NCBI GenBank assembly: GCA_964016885.1
Contig: OZ024762.1
Span: 3,100,001 to 3,164,000 of the forward strand
DNA from: Eledone cirrhosa
Lineage: Eukaryota
DNA: 64,000 bases
Reading direction: 5' to 3'
Shown piece after piece: positions 9,423 to 60,639 of this stretch. The notes beneath the pieces were generated by a model. It had not been told where the DNA came from. It was given only the letters and a program-made list of their open reading frames with translations, and did no database searches. Numbering within the stretch: the first letter of the stretch is position 1; the number at the start of each line of letters is the position of its first letter. Made by a program: the position numbers and the translations under genes.

Positions 9423-9879
9423 TATGTATGTATGTATGTATGTATGTATGTATGTATGTATGTATGTATGTATGTATGTATGCATGCATGGTCACGTAAC
9501 CCCTGATAGAATCGTAGGGGCGCCGTGTTGACATACAGCGTATTGGGGGCATTTTAAGCCTGGTGGAGCCCACCCCCCTCCAGACCTGAGTACAGCAGAT
9601 ATCTTCCATAGAAAGATAGAAAGTGAAAGAGAGATATAGAGGAAGAATCGACCCAGTACTAATACTGGTACTTTTTTATTGACCTCGAAAGGATGAAAGG
9701 CAAAATTGACCTCGGCGGGATTTGAACGAATACCATAAAGCCTTCTATCCGATGTTCTAACGATTTTGCCAATTCGCCGCCTTGAAGCAAGAGTACAGAA
9801 ATATATATTCCAGATGATTCCATACGGATGAAACAGCTGTAGTCCTGTAGAAATCATTTCTATATAAGACCTCGGGCGT

Positions 9880-21092: not shown

Positions 21093-22053
21093 TGAGAGGG
21101 CTTCAAAAAGTTTGTGGAAAAAGAACAGTTGAAAAAAAACTGTACTTGTTTATGGCTCTGTCACTTGGACGCTAACGTTGAAACTGGTGAAAAAGCTAGA
21201 CGGGGCATACACGCGTATGCTCCGCACTTGCTTTAAACGTGTCTTGGAGGGAACACCCAACAAATAAGGATCTCTCTGGCAATATACCACCTATCAGCAG
21301 GTCAATACGTGGATTTGCTGGCCACTGTTGGCGCAGCAAGGAAGAAATAGCAGGTGATGTGTTGTTATGGAGTCTATCTCATGGAGCAAGAAACGCTGGT
21401 CGTCCCAAGAAGACATACGTCAAGCAACTTGAGGACGATAGTGGATGCACTGCGGAAGAACTGGCAAACGCTATGAGAGACAGAGATGGATGGAGGAAAC
21501 GTGTCGTAGAAAGCCGAGCAAGCTCAACCTGATGATGATGAAAAAAAACGGTTTAAGTTATGATGTTTATTTTTCAACACATGCTCCATCTAAGTCAATA
21601 CACTTCAGCAAGTTGATACCAGCCTTTAAATCTGTGTAAATCTGAGGGCCATGCAATTTAAACCATGTCAAAGCAGCTTTTTGTACATCTTCAACTGGGG
21701 ATCATCTTCAACCTCATCTCTTCCACTTCTAACACGACTTATCCATTTGTAGGGTGTTGATTTCTTTGGGGCATTGTCCCCATAAACCTGCCCCAGAGCG
21801 TCAATGATTTGGCTGCTATTCCACCCTAGCTTCACCATGAATTTGATGTTTTGATGGAGGCCAGGGGGCCATATTGCTCAAGTGGGTGTTGACTTCCAAC
21901 TGGCGGCGCTGCATTGCAACATACATTTAAGGGTTCATGTTAGAACATGTTATGACACGTTAGTACGAGAACGTACAGGTGCATTGAGATCAAAATTCCT
22001 TTATATGATTTCTAGTGACGTACTTTTTCCACAAACTTTTTGAAGCCTCCTCG
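21093..22053 (-). mobile_element. Internally deleted mariner (irritans/Hsmar2-like) with nested LINE fragment
   Basis: TIRs ...GGCTTCAAAAAGTTTGTGGAAAAAG flanked by TA. Minus strand encodes NIKFMVKLGW...VYGDNAPKKS..YKWI and KCIDLDGACVEK*. Confidence 0.88.
21140..21540 (+). mobile_element. RTE-type LINE 3' fragment nested in the mariner
   Basis: VLVYGSVTWTL..., FAGHCWRS, GRPKKTY and DRDGWR motifs, with a (GAT)n tail. Confidence 0.85.
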
Positions 22054-23729: not shown

Positions 23730-24480
23730 AAACATTGATGCCATTGCCTTGATCACAGAGGAAATGAGCCAAGCTCAAGCACTGCTCACACGTGTCGAGG
23801 TTGAATCAGGCAAAATAGGACTGCATCTCAATGCATAGAAGACCGAAATCCTGCATTACAATCAGGTTGGTCCAGCTCCATTGTTGTACCGTCAACAATC
23901 ATATTGATTGTTGACGGTACAGCATTCAATACAGTTGAGAAGTATCCTGGTGCATGGATGCACAGCTCATGTAAGGACTTTAAAGTTAGAAAAGCATTAG
24001 CATGCCACAAGCTGCTGAAGGTGTGGAAGTCTGACCTAAATCGCAAAATTAAGGAGCGCTTCTTCCTAGCATCTGTTGAGTCCGTCCTGCTTTACGGCAG
24101 TGAAACGTGGACTATTGACAAAGTGCTGTGCAAGAGACTTGACGGATGTCACACGAGGATGCTGAGAATGGCTCTCAACATTTCTTGGAAACAGAAGCTG
24201 ACAAATAAAGAACTATACAGATCACTACCACCAGTCTCAGAAAAAGTTGCCTGCCAGCGAATGAAACTGGCTGGGCAGTGCATCTGTCAAGAAACAGCAT
24301 CTCAACTTGTGATCTGGAGACCGGTGGTCGAACGAAGAATTGTGGGAAGACAGGCCGTCTCCTTCATTGATACCCTGCTGAGTGATGTCAACATTGATAA
24401 CATCGATGAACTGAGAAATGTCATGCGTGGATTAGAGAAAGCTGCTGAATCTTTGCGAGTGTAAACTCGGCCGAAGAAGA
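23730..24480 (+). mobile_element. RTE-type LINE 3' fragment
   Basis: [13 protein letters not shown]...RMLRMALNISW motifs. Confidence 0.88.
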
Positions 24481-40027: not shown

Positions 40028-40126
40028 CTACAGCAAGGCTATAAAAATGTTTATTTACAGGAACATTGGAAATATGATTCAATATAGGACACCAGTCGTG
40101 TGTGTGTGTGTGTGTTGTAGGGATGG

Positions 40127-40161
<35 letters not shown>

Positions 40162-40345
40162 GGACGGATGGTTTTGTGTGTTGGATGGATGGTTTTGTGT
40201 GTGTGTATGTGTATGAGTTGGATGGCTTTAATTGTGTGTGTGTGTGTGTGTGTGAAAGAGTTGGATGTATGTTTTTAATTGTGTGTAAGAAAAAACAAAT
40301 ACTTTGATACATTCACACACACACTAACATCTGTTGCTCTAGCAA

Positions 40346-40995
40346 CTATTTTGTGGTGTCCGCGGCCAGCTTACAAGACTCCATAGAACTATCCAGATGT
40401 TTGAAAGAGAGGTTTTCCGGTATTTGTATATCCTTCACAGTGGAAGCCACGGAGCTGTCGCAGAGCTTCTGGGTCCAGGAATTCATTGGGTAATTAAGGG
40501 TGTTCCAGAACAACGGGGTTCTGTTGTAATTGCTGAACCCTAGGTTTTGAGACGCACGTGCCAACTGGTAGCCGTTGCTTTGATAGAAGTATGAAGGGTT
40601 GAACTCAGAGCCTGTCATGCCACTGGTGGACATCTGTGATGGCGGATAGTATATAGAGTTGGCATTGGGCATGTTAGTACTACTACTTGTAGCAGTAGTA
40701 GTACTACTACTATTAGTACTACTAACACTACTACCAATATTGCTGCTACTACTGAAGCTAGTACCATCGGATATCTTGGTGGATGAAGCGAGGGCGCCAC
40801 AGTTGGAAGCTGAGAAGGACGTCTTTGGGGTATAGTAGCCAAAGTCTGCTTGAGTTGGGGATGAATAGATGTAACCTGTTGGTGGCTGAGTGGAAGGTAT
40901 CTGTAAGTTCAATGGCAGGTTTACATTAGGTATGGTCTGATTACCACTGATCTGTTGTACAACAGGATAGCTGTTAGACGCTGAAACGAAAGAAT
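40346..40995 (-). CDS. dmrt: Dmrt gene second coding exon (Ser/Thr/Pro/Tyr-rich), to the in-frame TAG
   Basis: Long non-microsatellite ORF preceded by pyrimidine-rich acceptors (tttcag at 40996 and 40981). Both are phase 1 and match the DM-exon donor. Joined, the two exons encode 311 aa as sequenced. Confidence 0.8.
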
Positions 40996-41178
40996 CTGAA
41001 ATGCCAAAGGTTGACAAGAAAACGAAACAAATTATGCTGTGAAAACTTGATGAATAAAACAATTACATAATTACCTCCCCTGACAATTGATCTTAATCTG
41101 TTAGCTGCCGAGTATATTTTACAATTACAGTTGCTGGACTGGTTTGTTTTTTATTCATTAAAATGACTATTTTTTTAA

Positions 41179-41515
41179 CCCTTTAGCATTTACATTAATA
41201 TCATATTTTCCCGGTAAATACTTTATTTCACATAATTACCTCACATAATATCAAATCTATGAGATTTTGATATTATTTATTTTGAGAAGAATACCTTAAC
41301 TCTTTAGTATTTACTCTATATATACTAATGTATTTTGGGGGTAGTCTTTATCTCACGTAATATCGAATTTATGAGATTCCAATATTATTTATTTTGAGAA
41401 CAGGGTGGTGGATTGGCAGCATTGCTGCTTATAATGTAGGTATAGGCAGCTGGTTCTGGCCAGTTTGAACAGAAAGAGGTGAGAGAATTCTGGTCGGATA
41501 TGGCCAGTTTAAGGG
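41179..41515. mobile_element. piggyBac-like MITE
   Basis: TTAA|CCCTTTAGC...AAGGG|TTAA. The family also appears at about 39180-39600 and 61790-62530. Confidence 0.7.
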
Positions 41516-41741
41516 TTAACTGCCACACCTATTTTACACAGCTACAGTTGCTGTGCCAGGTTTTTTTTCAGTAAAATGACAAACATTTATTAACACATAT
41601 CTGAATGATTGACAAACGTCACATCAATAAACTAGTAACGCCATCTAGCTTTGAAGTTAGGAACTGTTGGAAAAGAGTTCAAACATATTAGGACGAGTTA
41701 TCTCGTCTACAGCACTGAAGAGGTTAAACAACTGTATTTAA

Positions 41742-44276
41742 CCCTTTAGCCTTTAAACCAGCCGAATCAGGCCAGAATCACCTCTTTCTGTTCAAACTGG
41801 CTGTGATCAGCCACTCATACTGATGTTAAGGTATTGTTCTCAAAATAAATAACATAAAAATCTCTTAGATTCGATATTATGTAAGATAAGCCTTTACTAT
41901 GAAAATATAATAGTATATATACTATTATATATATATATATATAATATATATATACTATTATACTCAGTCAATGTGGTTGGTATTAAGAAGGGCATCCAGC
42001 CGTAGAAAACCAGCCAGAAACACCCCTATATAAGCATGACATGGTCAGCCAACCCAACTTGCCTCTAAATGGGACCTGTCTAACCTATGCTAGCATGGAA
42101 GATGGACGTTAATCGATGATGATGATATATATATATATATATAAATAATATATATATCATCATTATATCGAACATGGCCATTTCCCTGACGGAATCAGGG
42201 TTTTGTCCTCTTTTCTATTCATCAACACTTTTGTCTTAGCTAGGTTCACTCTCAGTCCTCTTGCTTCCAACTGCTGTTTCCATAGCCAGAATTTATTCTC
42301 TAGCTCCTCTACTGATTCTGCTATAAGAACCAGATCGTCAGCATAGAGAAGTTCCCATGGGCATCCAGTCTTAAACTCCTCTGATATGGCTTGGAGGAAT
42401 ATAATGAACAAGAGCGGGCTGAGGACCGAACCTTGATGTACTCCTATTTATATCTGGAATTCCTCACTAAACTCCATTCCTACTCTCACTTTACTGACAG
42501 CACCCCTGTACATAGCTTGCACTGTCCTCACAAGCCATTCCTCAACACCTAGCTTCCTTAGGGACCACCAGATGACAGATCGGGGTACCCTATCAAAGGC
42601 CTTCTCTAGGTCAACAAAAGCTAAGTATAGTGGCTTATTTTTCTCTAAGAACCTCTCTTGTAATTGTCTCACCAAGAAGAAGGCATCTGTTGTACTCTTC
42701 CCAGGCACAAACCAAACTGCATCTCATCTAGTTTGACCCTTTCTCTAATTAGTTGTGCTAATATCCTTTCTGCCACTTTCATAACCTGATCCATCAGTTT
42801 TATACCCCAATAATTGCTCCTCTCCAGAGCATCCCCTTTACCTTTGTAGCAATTTATGAGAATACTGCTGCACCAGTCTTTGGGTATGACACCACCATAT
42901 ATAGCCTGATTGATGATGTGTGCAACCAGTTTAGTGCCAACGTCCCCTGATGCCTTCAGCATCTCAGCAACTATCTCCGATGATCCAGCAGCCTTACCAT
43001 TTTTCATTTCCTTGATCGCCTCTTGGACCCTATATTCATCAATCTCAATAGCTGGTCCCTCTGTCAGATCTACTGAGGGTAATTTCTCTCTCTCCCATTC
43101 GTTCTCCACATTCATTAGTCTCTCATAATGACATTTCCAGGCCTCCTTTTTCTGATCATTTGTGACACTAAGTACACCGGCTTCATTCCAGACACATTTA
43201 TCTCCAACAACATCCTGATTTGCATTGACACACTGCCTTGCAATGTGGAACACCGCACGCCTCTGATCTTCCTGTCGCAGAACATTCGCAAACCTCCTAC
43301 TCTCAGCCTCCCTGCGTGCTAAGTACACCTGACGTCTAGCTTCTCTCTTAGCGGCTGTATATCCTTCTCTACTCCCACCCTTTTCCCAAGCCTTCCATGC
43401 TAGTCTTTTGTCTCTAATGGCCTTATCTACTGTGCTGTTCCACCACCAGGTCACTCTCTGTCTGGTTGGAGCTCTGCTCCAGCCACAAGTTTCATCAGTA
43501 GCCTGCAGTAAGTTGTCACGTAAGAAATTCCAGTTATTATCTATGTCATACGTCTCTAAATCGTCTTCTTTTTCGTCATACACATCTTGAAGGGCTTTCC
43601 TAAATTTGTATTTTAGTGAAAGGTCTTTTAGCTTCCAGACCTTTCTTCTCCACACCTTCCTGTATGTCTCATTCCATCTCTTGCTTACTGAGATATCATT
43701 ACTTGTTGCTGTGCTTATAATCGTTTTGGCATTGATACATGGTTGGATGCCCTTCCTAACACCAGCGCCACTTTACAGCATGGACTGGGTGCTTTTATTT
43801 GTGCCACCAGCACTAGAGAGGATGTCTTACTGGACTCATGGGCCTTCTCTACCCCTCCATTTTACAGCATGGTCATAAAAAAAAATATATATATATATAA
43901 TATAATATAGAGTAATGTAAATGTGAGATATGTGTGGTAAAGACCTTACCATGAAAATACAATAGTAAATATAAAGTAATGTAAATGTTATGTAAGATAT
44001 TATGTGAAGTAAAGACTTCACCGTGGAAATACAATAGTAAATATAAAGTAATGTAAATATTATGTGAGATATTATGAGATAAGACTTTACCGTGGAAATA
44101 TAATATATATATAGTGTAATGTAAATGTTATGAGATAATTATGTGAGCTAAAGATTTTACAAGGAAAATACAATAGTATATATAGAGTAATGAAAATATT
44201 ATGAGATATTATGTGAGGTAAAGCCTTTAGCATAGAAATACAATAGTAAATATAGAGTAATGTAAATGCTAAAGGG
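41742..44276. mobile_element. piggyBac-like MITE interrupted by nested insertions
   Basis: TTAA|CCCTTTAGC at 41742 and GCTAAAGGG|TTAA at 44276 enclose the RTE fragment. Confidence 0.65.
42163..43675 (-). mobile_element. RTE-clade LINE ORF2 fragment (RT domain), frameshifted
   Basis: TWWWN, YKGKGDALE, AFVDLEKAFDRVPR, QGSVLSP and LLYADDLVL motifs across three broken ORFs. It lies in the Dmrt intron. Confidence 0.95.
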
Positions 44277-44484
44277 TTAATGGATTATGCTGTCAAACAA
44301 CTTGAAGAATAAAACAATTACATAATTACCTCCCCTGACAATTGATCTCAACTCTTAAAAAAGCTATTTATTGGATTATTAGACTCCCCTTTGTATAAGA
44401 CCACCACCTGGTTTTAGAAGGACATTTTGAGAAAAAATAATTTTAGTACATTTCTTCATAAATTTATTAAAAATTATTTCGAAC

Positions 44485-44780
44485 AGCAAAACAAACGAAC
44501 TAAGTGAGAAATTAGGAATAAGAGGGATCAGATACTTGAGAGGAGATTACATTGGTGTGGTCATGTGATGCGCATGAAAGACGACAGCTGTATAAAAAAG
44601 TGCTGGTCGATCAAAATTGATGGAAGCTACGGAGTAGGTAGACCCAGAAAAACCTGGGACGATATGATAAAAACTCACCTTGCACACTTACACCTCTCTA
44701 AGACAATGTCACTGGATTGAGACCTTTGGCGCTACGCAGTAATACAGAAGACCCACCTTCCCTATGTGCAAAGTTAACCT
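44485..44780 (+). mobile_element. RTE-type LINE 3' fragment
   Basis: RRLHWCGHVMRM...GRPRKTWDD. Confidence 0.8.
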
Positions 44781-46749
44781 AACCAGTAGGCACCTCTTAA
44801 CCAAATATACACCCCAACCCACTACCCCGACTCCATCCTCCCACTCCCACCAACACCACCCCTTCTCTGTAAAATTATGTTGGTATCAAACTAAATTTTT
44901 TTAACCATGATTTTCCTCACACTCCATTCAGCCTTCTCTCGGTGATATAGGCGTATTGGACGCAGGGAAGATTTTTTGTTTTGGAGGGGGAAAAGTGTGT
45001 CTAATAGGCTGGCAAATACTGTATATATTACACTATATTTTACTCATTTTCAGCTGAGTATACTGGAGTAATGTGAAATGAAGAGTTTTGCTCAAGAACA
45101 CAACACACAACCCAGTCCTGGAATCAAACCCATGACATTATGATTGTAAGTCCAACACCATTACCACTAGGCCACACTACAATCCCCTTAGACAGAAAGC
45201 CAGTCCATCACAGGGTTAAACTCCCAGCTATTGCTGGTACTCATTTTCAGCTGAGTATACTGGAGCAATGTGAAATAACACACAACCCAGCCCAGGAATT
45301 GAACCCACATTATGATTTTAAGTCCAACACCCTTACCACTTGGCCATGTGCCTCCAAAGAAATCTGGATGGACTGAGAGACACAGAACAATTTTGAGAAG
45401 GATCATGGAAGCTAAAAGACCACCAATGTTAAATATAGGTTCATTCACCAAAATCATTCTCATTTCCATTCTTTCTACCTTTGGGCTCTCATCACCTCTG
45501 CCTATGTCTTCCCTGGTCTTTCTCTACTATACCTACCTCATACTGGAATTTCTTGGCACTTCTTTACCCAACGATTAAAAACAACCAGCCCACACTGTAA
45601 AGTGGTTGTGTAGGTGTCATGAAAAAAAGCACCCAGCCCACATTGTAAAGTGATCGTGTAGGAGACACGGCAAAAAGCACCCATCCCACATTGTAAAGTG
45701 ATCGTGTAGGAGACACGGCAAAAAGCACCCAGCCCACATTGTAAAGTGGTTGTGTAGGTGTCATGAAAAAAAGCACCCAGCCCACTCTGTAAAGTGGTCA
45801 TGTAGGAGACACGGCAAAAAGCACCCAGCCCACGCTGTAAATGTGGTTGGTGTTAGGAAGGGCATCCAGCTGTAGAAAACCTGCCAGAAATACTCCTATA
45901 TGAGCAGTACACGGTCACCTGACCCAACTTGCCTCTAATGGGACAAACCCGTCTAACACATGCGAGTGTGGAAAATGGATGTTAAACGATGATGACGATG
46001 ATATACATTATATATGATATTGTCCAAGGGAAAAGAAAAGACAGATACAACTTAGCACTAGTGACATCACAATTCATTTCCACCAGTTGACTAAACTGGA
46101 ACAACGTGAAATAAAGTGTCTTGCTCAAAGACACAACACACCACCTGCTCTATGACTCGAACTCACTACCTTACGATTGTGAGCCCAAAGAAATAACCAC
46201 TAAACCACATGCCTTCGCACTATACATAGCGTATTTACTCAAATATAAGCCAAGGAATATGTGACCAAAAAATCAATTATATTCTTATATTTATATCCAA
46301 GGCCAATATTTTGAATATTTTCACCAACTTCAAATTCTATGTAAATAAGGTTTGAATTTTTGCCAATTTCTCAAACATAAAATTGTGGAGTCAGCTTATA
46401 TTCGAGTATGGTCCTAAGGGAGTCATAGGGGCGCCATATTGACATACAGACCCCATATCCTCTCCAGGTTTCTTCCAGAGAAGGATAAAGGGTGAGAGAA
46501 TGGAAGTGAGAAAGAAATATAGAGGAAGAATCGACCCCAGTATTAGACTGGTACTTTTTTAATTGACCATAAATGAATGAAAGGCAAAGTTGACCTTGGC
46601 AGTATTTGATGAGAGAGCCGCAATGAATACTGTTCTAACGACTCCTATTTGCCACCTATATTCGAGTATGTAGATGTAGAGTCCCCTAACTTCTGATAGT
46701 TGTAGGGGCACCATATTGACATACAGCGGTTCTTGGCCATTTTAAGCTT

Positions 46750-47382
46750 GGCAGAGCCCATCCCTTCTCCAGGTCTGACCTGGCGGAGTCCATCCCTTCT
46801 CCAGGTCTGACCTGGCGGAGCCCATCCCTTCTCCAGGTCTGACCTGGCAGAGCCCATCCCTTCTCCAGGTCTGACCTGGCAGAGCCCATCCCTTCTCCAG
46901 GTCTGACCTGGCAGAGCCCATCCCTTCTCCAGGTCTGACCTGGCAGAGCCCATCCCTTCTCCAGGTCTGACCTGGCGGAGTCCATCCCTTCTCCAGGTCT
47001 GACCTGGCGGAGTCCATCCCTTCTCCAGGTCTGACCTGGCGGAGTCCATCCCTTCTCCAGGTCTGACCTGGCGGAGTCCATCCCTTCTCCAGGTCTGACC
47101 TGGCGGAGTCCATCCCTTCTCCAGGTCTGACCTGGCGGAGTCCATCCCTTCTCCAGGTCTGACCTGGCGGAGTCCATCCCTTCTCCAGGTCTGACCTGGC
47201 GGAGTCCATCCCTTCTCCAGGTCTGACCTGGCGGAGTCCATCCCTTCTCCAGGTCTGACCTGGCGGAGTCCATCCCTTCTCCAGGTCTGACCTGGCGGAG
47301 TCCATCCCTTCTCCAGGTCTGACCTGGCGGAGTCCATCCCTTCTCCAGGTCTGACCTGGCGGAGTCCATCCCTTCTCCAGGC
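46750..47382. repeat. 32-bp minisatellite (~20 copies) inside a SINE-like element
   Basis: Unit CCATCCCTTCTCCAGGTCTGACCTGGCGGAGT. The flanks match the unexpanded element at about 9510-9780. Confidence 0.95.
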
Positions 47383-47637
47383 CTGAGTACAGCAGATTTC
47401 TTCCAGAGAAAGATAGAAAGTGAGAGAGAGGAGATGAGAAAGAGATGTAGAGGAAGAATCGACCTCAGTACTAAACTGGTACTTTTTTTTATCAACCATG
47501 ATGAAAGGCAAAGTTGACCTTGATGGGATTTGAACTCAGAGAGTCGGAACAAATACTACAAAACCTTCCAATGTTCTAACTCTGCCAATTGATGGCCTAT
47601 ATTGAGTATACGCAGTTACTAATATATAAAATCTTAC

Positions 47638-47923
47638 CTGGATTGACACAACCGGAATAGTCAGTAATTTGCTGACATGATTTATCACATCTTAAGCAAC
47701 CTTTGAAAATATCCTTCACATTCATATCTGGGTGTCTTTGTAAGAGAATTTGTTGCCGACTTATTCGGCGCCGCTCCTCCACAAGAATACATTTTATGCA
47801 GTTACAAAGTAGATAGGGGCAAAAGCCTTTGTGTCCCTTCATTTTGGCATCGAAACCATGATTTCTACAACGAGAACATTTGGGGTTCCGATATGAAGTT
47901 GGATATGGTTTCTTCACATCCAT
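47638..47923 (-). CDS. dmrt: Dmrt (doublesex/mab-3 related) transcription factor, DM-domain exon
   Basis: Translation RNPKCSRCRNHGFDAKMKGHKGFCPYLLCNCIKC has the full DM zinc-ligand spacing C-x2-C-x2-H-x8-H-x3-C-x4-C-x-C-x2-C. Acceptor tttccag at 47960, with 12 open codons before the ATG. Phase-1 donor CAG|GTAAGA at 47637. Subfamily not assigned. Confidence 0.93.
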
Positions 47924-48039
47924 AGCAGTGGTATCACCTTGGGGGGGAACACTAGAACTCTGGAAAGATAAACAATATTTAACTTAGATGAAAGACACAA
48001 AGGGATTTTGATTTTAATATATCTTCCTCACACAATCTT

Positions 48040-59150: not shown

Positions 59151-59577
59151 TAAAACAGCCAAATGCTGTCAATGACAGAGACCAGTAACCAGTGGTCAGT
59201 ATAGATACAATCCACAAGGTGGGTGACAGGTAGATAAAATATAGAAAAGATTGAGAGGGGAAGAGGATAAGGAGAAGCATGTGAATTAATATATATACAT
59301 ATATATATAACATATAATAAGTAACAGGAATATGACAGCATTGCATTTAAACTGTGAAGTTGTCATATTCCTGTTACTTATTATATTATATATAAACACT
59401 CCTGGAATTACCTTCATTGTACCAGCGGTTAACCACCACGGAAACATTTGATAAACCTTTCACCTGTCGAGTCAAAAACCATCGTATGTTGACATAGTCT
59501 TCGATTTCCCCTAACGAAATCTGATTTCTACTATATTCTATATATATATATATATATATTGTAGTAGGAGCAGAAAA

Positions 59578-60639
59578 ATGATGGAAAAGGAATTATGTGG
59601 AAGCCGAGTTAAAGGTATAGCCCAATCTGAAATGACTGAGTTTACTGATACAATGCTGAAAGAGACAGAAAAAAACTCATATCATTGTGATATCTGTGAT
59701 AAATCCTTCAATCAAAAAGGTAACTTAAATACTCACGGACGTATTCATACAGGAGAGAAACCATATCACTGCGTTGTCTGTGGTAAATCATTCACTGCAA
59801 GAAGTCACTTAACCCCTCATAAACGTACCCATACCGGGGAAAAACCGTATCACTGTGATATCTGTGGTAAAACGTTCTCTGAAGGCTGTAAACTGAATAA
59901 GCATAAATACATTCATACAGGAGAAAAGCCCTATCACTGTGAAATCTGTGGTAAATCATTCTCTCAAGGAAGTAACTTAACTAAACACAAGTACCTTCAT
60001 ATAGGAGAGAAGCCATATCACTGTGATATCTGTGGTAAATCATTCTTTCAGAGAGTTCATGTCACTACTCACAAACGTGTTCATACAGGAGAGAAACCAT
60101 ATCACTGTGATATCTGTGGTAAATCATTTTCTCAAACAAGTCACATAGCTATACACAACAGACGTATTCATTCAGAAGAGAAAGACATTCATACAGAAGA
60201 GAAACCACATCACTGTGATATCTGTGGTAAATCATTCTCTGAAACAAGTTACTTAGCTAAACATATACGTATTCATACTGGAGAGAAACCATATCACTGT
60301 GATATCTGTGGTAAATCATTCTCTGAAGGTGGAGTATTAACTAAACACAGACGTATTCATACAGGAGAGAAACCATATCACTGTGATATATGTGGTATAT
60401 CATTCTCTCAAACAGGTCATTTGACTACTCACAAACACATCCATACAGGAGAGAAACCATATCACTGTGATATCTGTGGTAAATCATTCTCTCAAAGAAG
60501 TCATTTAACTATTCACAAACGTATACATACAGGAGAGAAACCATATCACTGTGATATTTGTGGTAAATCATTCTCTCAAAATAGCGATGTAACTAAACAT
60601 AAACGTAGTCATACAGGAAAGAAGCCATATCTCTGGTAA
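59578..60639 (+). CDS. Tandem C2H2 zinc-finger protein, 11 fingers, 353 aa
   Basis: Eleven C-x2-C-x12-H-x3/4-H repeats with TGEKP linkers (YHCDICGKSFS...H). Tandem TAG/TAG/GAG/CAG acceptors at 59562-59573 imply an upstream exon. Confidence 0.95.
   Translation: MMEKELCGSRVKGIAQSEMTEFTDTMLKETEKNSYHCDICDKSFNQKGNLNTHGRIHTGEKPYHCVVCGKSFTARSHLTPHKRTHTGEKPYHCDICGKTFSEGCKLNKHKYIHTGEKPYHCEICGKSFSQGSNLTKHKYLHIGEKPYHCDICGKSFFQRVHVTTHKRVHTGEKPYHCDICGKSFSQTSHIAIHNRRIHSEEKDIHTEEKPHHCDICGKSFSETSYLAKHIRIHTGEKPYHCDICGKSFSEGGVLTKHRRIHTGEKPYHCDICGISFSQTGHLTTHKHIHTGEKPYHCDICGKSFSQRSHLTIHKRIHTGEKPYHCDICGKSFSQNSDVTKHKRSHTGKKPYLW

What the first reader, a model, noticed from the sequence alone, without database searches (positions are those of the whole stretch)
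40346..47959. Divergent Dmrt gene, a candidate cephalopod sex-development regulator
Seen: a DM domain with all eight zinc ligands, spliced in phase across a 6.6-kb TE-filled intron to a Ser/Pro/Tyr-rich exon. The recognition-helix region reads EERRRISRQQILLQR instead of the usual ERQRVMAAQVALRR. A CxxCxxxC cluster follows the domain, and no DMA domain is evident. Established: dsx, mab-3, DMRT1, DMY and DM-W control sexual development, and fast-evolving DMA-less members such as molluscan Dmrt1-like tend to be gonad-specific. Inference: this is a fast-evolving Dmrt, possibly with altered DNA specificity.
Basis: partly seen in the sequence, partly recalled or inferred. Interest (0 to 1): 0.8.

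Follow-up and report, generated by a model that had tools for sequence, protein, structure and literature searches.

The report
Octopod Dmrt-1L, likely testis transcription factor
This is an intact octopod gene for a zinc-binding DM-domain transcription factor, the direct counterpart of the already catalogued Octopus Dmrt-1L, which likely binds the ordinary Dmrt DNA site and likely works in the testis downstream of the sex-chromosome signal rather than as the sex switch itself.

Summary
A minus-strand CDS (ATG 47923, GT-AG intron of 6642 nt, stop ending 40346) gives 311 aa: a DM domain with all eight zinc ligands, four more cysteines, no DMA domain. It is collinear with O. bimaculoides XP_014782618.1 (219/308 identical) and O. 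sinensis XP_036368911.1 (220/308). Both are curated as mollusc-specific Dmrt-1L (PMC12530298). So the gene is known in two relatives and new only for this species. The odd helix is identical in three Octopus species, so it is old and conserved. The three base-reading positions are kept (R51, I59, R63), and insect Dsx helices with about half their residues changed still select ACAyTGT. Altered specificity is therefore the weaker reading. An O. sinensis 'Dmrt1', probably this gene family, is testis-biased (136.43 vs 1.56 FPKM). No Z-linked Dmrt1L hit was reported in O. bimaculoides. Splicing, expression, sex linkage and binding were not tested for this species. Open points: an octopod-only four-cysteine segment after a proline that ends the helix, and younger Octopus copies with Asn at a base-reading position.

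The parts
47638..47959 (-). Exon holding the start codon (36 nt of likely 5' UTR from the acceptor at 47960, ATG 47923) and residues 1-95 plus one base
   Evidence: the orthologues start at the same Met
47750..47890 (-). DM domain (Pfam PF00751, residues 12-58) with zinc ligands C16 C19 H22 H31 C35 C40 C42 C45
   Evidence: best PDB sequence match 4YJ0, E 3e-15; the model's best structural match is 4yj0_A, Z 5.8, rmsd 3.0, 59 aligned
47735..47797 (-). Predicted recognition helix, residues 43-63. Base-reading positions R51, I59, R63; rare residues S55, R56, L60, Q62; P65 follows the helix
   Evidence: positions 8/16/20 taken from 10.1101/2024.09.25.614005
47648..47698 (-). Four-cysteine segment C76-x2-C79-x3-C83-x8-C92, seen only in octopod proteins; possible extra metal site, untested
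   Evidence: 7 of 7 octopod proteins compared; CxxCxxxC follows 0 of 222 other DM domains; pLDDT 43-53
40996..47637 (-). Phase-1 GT-AG intron, 6642 nt, about three quarters repeats
42166..43772 (-). Broken non-LTR retrotransposon (RT LINE) fragment in the intron, in three frame pieces
   Evidence: RVT_1 E 6.1e-6 and 5.4e-14
46749..47386 (.). 32-bp minisatellite, 19.9 copies, 98% matches, in the intron
40346..40995 (-). Last coding exon: Ser/Thr/Asn-rich low-complexity region of 215 residues plus stop; likely a transcription-regulating region (inferred)
   Evidence: only 2 of 817 candidates match it, both Octopus
40050..40345 (-). Likely 3' UTR with candidate poly(A) signals ATTAAA (40279, 40232) and AATAAA (40055)
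   Evidence: sequence only

Best explanation
This is the intact octopod orthologue of Octopus Dmrt-1L, a DM-domain transcription factor without a DMA domain, which likely binds the ordinary Dmrt site (ACAnTGT core) and likely acts in the testis to build or maintain the male gonad and germ line, downstream of the ZZ/Z0 signal rather than as the switch. Shown: gene anatomy, the DM domain, and end-to-end orthology to three Octopus species. From the literature on its orthologues: placement in Dmrt-1L. Inferred: two intertwined zinc sites hold the DM fold, the helix reads major-groove bases through R51, I59 and R63, and the Ser/Thr/Asn-rich tail recruits co-regulators. Testis bias is inferred from O. 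sinensis and bivalves, and the male-gonad role from oyster RNAi.
For: 311 aa, collinear with XP_014782618.1 (also 311 aa; 219/308) and XP_036368911.1 (220/308), with no gap at the junction. Both exons find only these Octopus proteins: 2 of 8 candidates and 2 of 817. PMC12530298 Table S6 lists them and two more O. sinensis proteins as Dmrt-1L, and its mollusc-only tree labels them inside the Dmrt-1L bracket. The seven octopod DM domains form one group (95/95). Base-reading positions: R51 occurs in 75 of 76 single-DM hits and R63 in 65 of 76; position 59 is V in 57 and I in 10 of 76. Seven insect and crustacean Dsx DM domains, some with about half the helix changed, all selected ACAyTGT. O. sinensis EVM0011468 'Dmrt1' has 136.43 vs 1.56 FPKM in testis vs ovary, FDR 3.48e-5, with only a DM domain listed. 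Scallop DMRT1L is testis-enriched, and oyster RNAi shrank male gonads (as cited in PMC10588774). A BLASTP of scallop DMRT1L against O. bimaculoides Z proteins was run, and Z hits were reported only for FOXL2 and ZNK226l.
Against: No RNA, binding or genetic data exist here for this species. The Dmrt-1L label is manual ('Manually annotated'); its monophyly fails in the broad tree and is recovered only with molluscs alone, and I could not read the support values. My own tree held no named molluscan Dmrt, so it cannot confirm the label. EVM0011468 was not matched by sequence to these proteins and is not among the qPCR-checked genes. The comparison was 3 testes vs 2 ovaries, and the 'immature' testes already held spermatids and sperm, so the bias may reflect spermatogenesis only. 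Two residues on the DNA-facing side are rare: S55 (4 of 76) and Q62 (1 of 76). Q62 sits where DMRT1 R/K122 contacts the phosphate backbone. P65 ends the predicted helix early.
Confidence: 0.6

Rival explanations
1. Same gene, but with a changed binding mode. The lost backbone contact (Q62), the changed S55/R56/L60, the early helix end at P65 and the four-cysteine segment would change affinity, the number of protomers per site or flanking preference, perhaps through a third zinc site.
For: S55, R56, L60, Q62 and P65 occur in 4, 3, 0, 1 and 2 of 76 single-DM hits. They are fixed in the window, O. bimaculoides and the O. sinensis/O. vulgaris copy closest to them. The Cys segment follows no other of 222 DM domains. 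One DMRT1 helix change (R111G) alters stoichiometry and sites in vivo (PMC9713387).
Against: Base-reading residues are kept, and insect SELEX shows the motif tolerates large helix changes, including at dimer-face residues. Conservation of the four Cys is unremarkable by itself: 22 of 30 positions in 66-95 are invariant in five proteins, so four invariant positions have a chance of about 0.3.
Confidence: 0.2
2. It is not a true Dmrt-1L but a Dmrt-3 or Dmrt-4/5 that lost its DMA domain and diverged in octopods, drawn to Dmrt-1L by long branches. It could then have somatic or neural roles.
For: The mollusc-only tree lists only Dmrt-1L and Dmrt-2 for both Octopus species and no cephalopod Dmrt-3 or Dmrt-4/5 (whole file read). 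The stem is long. Dmrt-1L monophyly is unstable, and C. elegans genes fall among these proteins in the broad tree.
Against: Both published trees list the Octopus proteins next to gastropod Dmrt-1L entries (order of labels only). No DMA trace. The testis-biased O. sinensis DM gene fits Dmrt-1L.
Confidence: 0.12
3. It is the primary, dose-sensitive or sex-linked sex determiner of this species, like avian Z-linked DMRT1 (comparison recalled).
For: Cephalopods have ZZ/Z0 sex chromosomes. Dmrt-1L is proposed as a primary determiner in bivalves from its high divergence.
Against: No Z-linked DMRT1L hit was reported in O. bimaculoides, and the coleoid Z is syntenically conserved. That paper does not state the gene's chromosome, and a move in this lineage is not excluded.
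Confidence: 0.05
4. The two exons are not joined, or the locus is a dead copy.
For: No spliced read was seen.
Against: The frame is open across a consensus junction that is the best of 23 alternatives. Both exons are conserved in order with no stop at about 29% divergence. Contigs of one public sample span each exon without a coding change; one synonymous difference in exon 2.
Confidence: 0.03

Closest known systems
Octopus Dmrt-1L: O. bimaculoides XP_014782618.1 (RefSeq name 'putative protein TPRXL') and O. sinensis XP_036368911.1, XP_029647701.2, XP_036366646.1 (PMC12530298 Table S6)
   Same: Same start Met, length (311 vs 311/312), domain order, four extra Cys and C-terminal end; residues 46-65 identical to XP_014782618.1 and XP_036368911.1.
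   Different: About 71% identical overall (67% to the two 295-aa copies); exon 2 is about 65% identical. The window's protein lies outside the three named species under midpoint rooting.
Bivalve and gastropod Dmrt-1L / DMRT1L (scallop, oyster, mussel)
   Same: DM domain only, with no DMA, Dmrt1 or Dsx domain; high divergence; male-biased gonad expression in relatives.
   Different: No bivalve or gastropod sequence was obtained, so direct similarity was not tested. Some members have two DM domains; this one has one, and the Cys segment is not a detectable relic of a second.
Human DMRT1 DM domain on DNA (PDB 4YJ0) and Drosophila Dsx (1LPV)
   Same: Eight ligands, same spacing, no indel; Arg at the R111 and R123 positions and a hydrophobic residue between them.
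   Different: Not orthologues according to PMC12530298. The helix is 6 of 14 identical in the quoted stretch; Gln at the R/K122 backbone position; Pro two residues after R63; no Dmrt1 or DSX_dimer domain.

Membership tests
DM-domain (Dmrt) family | Pfam DM domain above the curated cut-off | tested here: met
   68.5 bits vs 27, profile 1-47 of 47
DM-domain (Dmrt) family | Intertwined CCHC and HCCC ligands followed by a recognition helix | tested here: met
   Eight ligands; predicted helix 43-63 at block pLDDT 72-91; matches 4yj0_A at Z 5.8
DM-domain (Dmrt) family | Binds an ACAnTGT-type site | not testable with these tools
   Inferred from the retained base-reading residues
Octopus Dmrt-1L orthologue group | Full-length collinear orthology to the curated Octopus proteins | tested here: met
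   219/308 and 220/308 identical; only hits for both exons; one group at 95/95; accessions curated as Dmrt-1L
Mollusc-wide Dmrt-1L | DM domain(s) only; no DMA, Dmrt1 or Dsx domain | tested here: met
   Pfam scans of both exons and of three orthologues; definition as in PMC10541798
Mollusc-wide Dmrt-1L | Groups with bivalve and gastropod Dmrt-1L in a DM tree | tested here: inconclusive
   My tree had no named molluscan references. The published mollusc-only tree places the orthologues there and the broad tree does not support the clade; support values not readable
Mollusc-wide Dmrt-1L | Male-biased gonad expression | not testable with these tools
   No RNA run available for this locus; the O. 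sinensis datum is indirect
Dmrt-3/93B and Dmrt-4-5/99B | DMA domain after the DM domain (present in most molluscan members) | tested here: not met
   No PF03474 hit; family description
Dmrt-2/11E | Orthology to the Octopus Dmrt-2 proteins XP_052832484.1 / XP_029650766.2 | tested here: not met
   Its orthologues are the other Octopus Dmrt proteins, listed apart from Dmrt-2; the Dmrt-2 sequences themselves were not fetched
Sex-linked Dmrt master determiners (DMY, DM-W, Z-linked DMRT1; names recalled) | Sex-chromosome linkage and a sex-reversing loss of function | not testable with these tools
   No genome held; one unsexed sample; literature gives no Z hit in O. bimaculoides

The most novel reading that the evidence does not exclude
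Octopods rebuilt the back half of the DM domain: a proline stops the recognition helix early and a four-cysteine segment found in no other retrieved Dmrt binds a third zinc and takes over protomer assembly, so that the male-gonad Dmrt of the oldest known animal sex-chromosome system reads the standard core site in a new oligomeric mode. Its younger duplicates in O. sinensis and O. vulgaris, with Asn at a base-reading position, would read a different site.
Probability: 0.2. Interest if true: 0.55.

Novelty: new member of a known kind. Interest (0 to 1): 0.3.

Why it matters
Cephalopods have an ancient ZZ/Z0 system, and the genes that turn Z dose into testis or ovary are not identified in the papers read. 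Octopus appears to keep only two Dmrt types, so this gene is the obvious DM-domain candidate for the male gonad, and the exon model gives a defined target for expression and knockout work. It has already been catalogued in two species, and a testis-biased 'Dmrt1' is published, so a further orthologue adds little. The points not met in the passages read are the conserved odd helix with its base-reading residues intact, the four-cysteine segment, and the Ile-to-Asn change in the younger duplicates.

Tried and rejected
1) The Cys segment as a relic of a second DM domain: against a profile of 190 DM domains, residues 66-135 scored -1.4, -1.4 and -1.2 bits, matched or beaten by 533, 566 and 483 of 1000 shuffles. 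Rejected.
2) Fold of the Cys segment: pLDDT 43-53. Foldseek found nothing at E<=0.001, not even the DM structures. The Atlas gave no usable hit for residues 60-110. All uninformative.
4) Junction reads: no RNA holder listed. The three runs are one sample whose contigs run through exon-intron borders, as genomic DNA does. This is no evidence on expression, and depth cannot test sex linkage.
5) Whole-genome context, copy number and chromosome: no genome held.
6) Own test of Dmrt-1L membership: the best 150 of 2339 phmmer hits gave no named molluscan Dmrt among the 20 looked up other than an O. vulgaris copy. The tree used 84 rows and 55 columns and left out multi-DM proteins (except one), rows with other ligand spacing and one Octopus fragment.
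7) Linking EVM0011468 to a RefSeq protein: no occurrence in the one supplement held.
8) DM core sites near the gene: 0, 5 and 1 upstream, in the intron and downstream, against 1.1, 2.1 and 1.4 in mononucleotide shuffles; no case for autoregulation.
9) Other genes in the window: of 140 further ORFs, 2 had weak hits below cut-off; Rfam found nothing.
10) The DMRT1-DNA structure paper was not held and a search for its contact residues found 0 papers, so contacts come from secondary sources.
11) Two look-ups of earlier findings returned nothing.
Full report
1. Observation. The minus strand carries an exon from an AG acceptor at 47960 through ATG 47923 to a CAG|GTAAGA donor after 47638. A 6642-nt GT-AG intron in phase 1 follows, then an exon 40995-40346 ending in TAG. 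Joined, this is 936 nt and 311 aa without a stop. Among 23 open in-frame donor/acceptor pairs nearby, this junction aligns best to the two Octopus orthologues. Residues 12-58 match Pfam DM (E 4.6e-19) and exon 2 matches nothing, so there is no DMA. All eight zinc ligands are present. The intron holds a broken RT LINE, a 32-bp minisatellite and other repeats, 5020 of 6642 bases in all. Exon 2 is Ser/Thr/Asn-rich more than Pro/Tyr-rich. Contigs from one public sample cross each exon; exon 2 differs by one synonymous base and there is a one-base UTR insertion in one run. No spliced reads were available.

2. What it is. Searched separately, each exon finds only the same two Octopus clusters (2 of 8 and 2 of 817 candidates). 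They hold O. bimaculoides XP_014782618.1, three O. sinensis proteins and two O. vulgaris models; a third O. vulgaris fragment appeared later. The window's protein aligns from first Met to last Lys: 219/308 with O. bimaculoides, 220/308 with XP_036368911.1, 194/290 and 195/290 with the two shorter O. sinensis copies. The DM domain is 44/47 identical and exon 2 about 65%. The source is therefore inferred to be another octopod; I did not try to name it. PMC12530298 lists all four RefSeq proteins as 'Manually annotated as Dmrt-1L'. Its mollusc-only tree shows only Dmrt-1L and Dmrt-2 for Octopus. The authors say Dmrt-1L is mollusc-specific, not orthologous to DMRT1 or dsx, and monophyletic only when molluscs are analysed alone. 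My DM tree (84 rows, 55 columns, bootstrap not fully settled) gives one octopod group (95/95) on a stem of 1.11 changes per column with very short inner branches. It held no named molluscan references and so does not test the Dmrt-1L label.

3. The helix. Residues 46-65 are identical in the window, O. bimaculoides, and one copy each of O. sinensis and O. vulgaris, so the odd sequence is old and conserved. Alignment to 4YJ0 has no gap; the numbering offset of about 60 is my inference. A preprint on cricket Dsx gives three base-contacting helix positions, 8, 16 and 20: two Arg and a variable Thr/Met/Val. Here they are R51, I59 and R63. R is found there in 75 and 65 of 76 single-DM hits, and I in 10 of 76 beside V in 57. 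In that preprint seven DM domains, some with about half the helix changed, all selected ACAyTGT. Against this, S55, R56, L60, Q62 and P65 are rare (4, 3, 0, 1 and 2 of 76). Q62 replaces a backbone-contacting basic residue (DMRT1 R/K122), and the predicted helix stops at 63. A change in affinity or in protomer number is thus more plausible than a new base code.

4. The cysteines. C76, C79, C83 and C92 are kept in 7 of 7 octopod proteins, and CxxCxxxC follows 0 of 222 other DM domains. The segment is 22/30 invariant anyway, so this is no proof of a metal site. It is not a detectable relic of a second DM domain, and the model has no confidence there.

5. How it likely works. Shown: an intact DM fold and orthology. 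Inferred: binding to ACAnTGT-type sites, with the low-complexity tail as the regulatory region. The role comes from relatives. O. sinensis 'Dmrt1' (EVM0011468, DM domain only) has 136.43 vs 1.56 FPKM in testis vs ovary (3 vs 2 samples; not in the qPCR set; not tied by sequence to these proteins). Scallop DMRT1L is testis-enriched and found in germ and follicle cells. Oyster RNAi reduced male gonads (second-hand). A search of O. bimaculoides Z proteins with scallop DMRT1L gave no reported hit, while FOXL2 and a zinc-finger gene did. I therefore read it as a likely autosomal male-gonad and germ-line regulator downstream of Z dose (0.6). Rivals: a changed binding mode (0.2), a disguised Dmrt-3 or Dmrt-4/5 (0.12), a primary switch (0.05), not spliced or dead (0.03).

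6. Novelty and score. New member of a known kind: the orthologues are catalogued and a testis-biased octopus 'Dmrt1' is published. In the passages read I met no account of the octopod helix, the Cys segment or the Asn-bearing duplicates. The searches were made; this is not a proof of absence, and most subscription papers are not held. Interest 0.3.

7. What was read. PMC12530298: passages, part 4 of 39 of the supplementary tables, part 1 of 2 of one tree file and one whole tree file (labels only, no topology or support); files 13 and 14 were not searched. PMC11202624: passages, the tables section and a supplement search. PMC10925132, PMC9713387, PMC12186615, PMC6113668, PMC13219418, PMC9068888, PMC10541798, PMC10588774 and 10.1101/2024.12.09.627507: passages only. 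10.1101/2024.09.25.614005: passages and two full results sections; its figures and supplements, which mark the contact residues, were not seen. Murphy et al. 2015, Evensen et al. 2022 and Sun et al. 2022 were not seen, only cited through these papers. The comparison with DMY, DM-W and avian DMRT1 is recalled or taken from the finding.

Noticed in passing
Related proteins P0004, P0005, P0007, P0008, P0006, P0046: O. sinensis and O. vulgaris each carry three Dmrt-1L models on two large contigs (31.2 and 55.4 Mb; 48.2 and 73.6 Mb). The copies on the second contig have Asn instead of Ile at base-reading helix position 16 and Arg at position 19. The duplication looks younger than the split from O. 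bimaculoides (87/87, midpoint root). These copies are better candidates for changed DNA specificity than the window's gene.
   Followed up: partly
PMC12530298 mollusc-only tree: Both Octopus species have only Dmrt-1L and Dmrt-2 entries; no cephalopod Dmrt-3 or Dmrt-4/5 is listed. Loss, or a gap in annotation.
   Followed up: no
window 59515-60639 (+): Single-frame ORF of 374 aa with 11 C2H2 fingers, 11.6 kb upstream and on the opposite strand; typical of the expanded octopus C2H2 family.
   Followed up: partly
window 47960 and upstream (-): A pyrimidine-rich AG acceptor 37 nt before the ATG implies an upstream, probably untranslated exon that was not located.
   Followed up: no
window 46749-47386: Very homogeneous 32-bp x 19.9 minisatellite (98% matches) inside a repeat that has a shorter relative at about 9474-9727; all three minus-strand frames are open through it.
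   Followed up: no
window 21671-21877 (-), 23805-24461 (+): Weak Pfam hits below cut-off to a Mos1 transposase HTH and DUF6451; likely transposon remnants.
   Followed up: no
P0003 (XP_014782618.1): RefSeq names the O. bimaculoides orthologue 'putative protein TPRXL', which hides it from name searches for Dmrt.
   Followed up: yes
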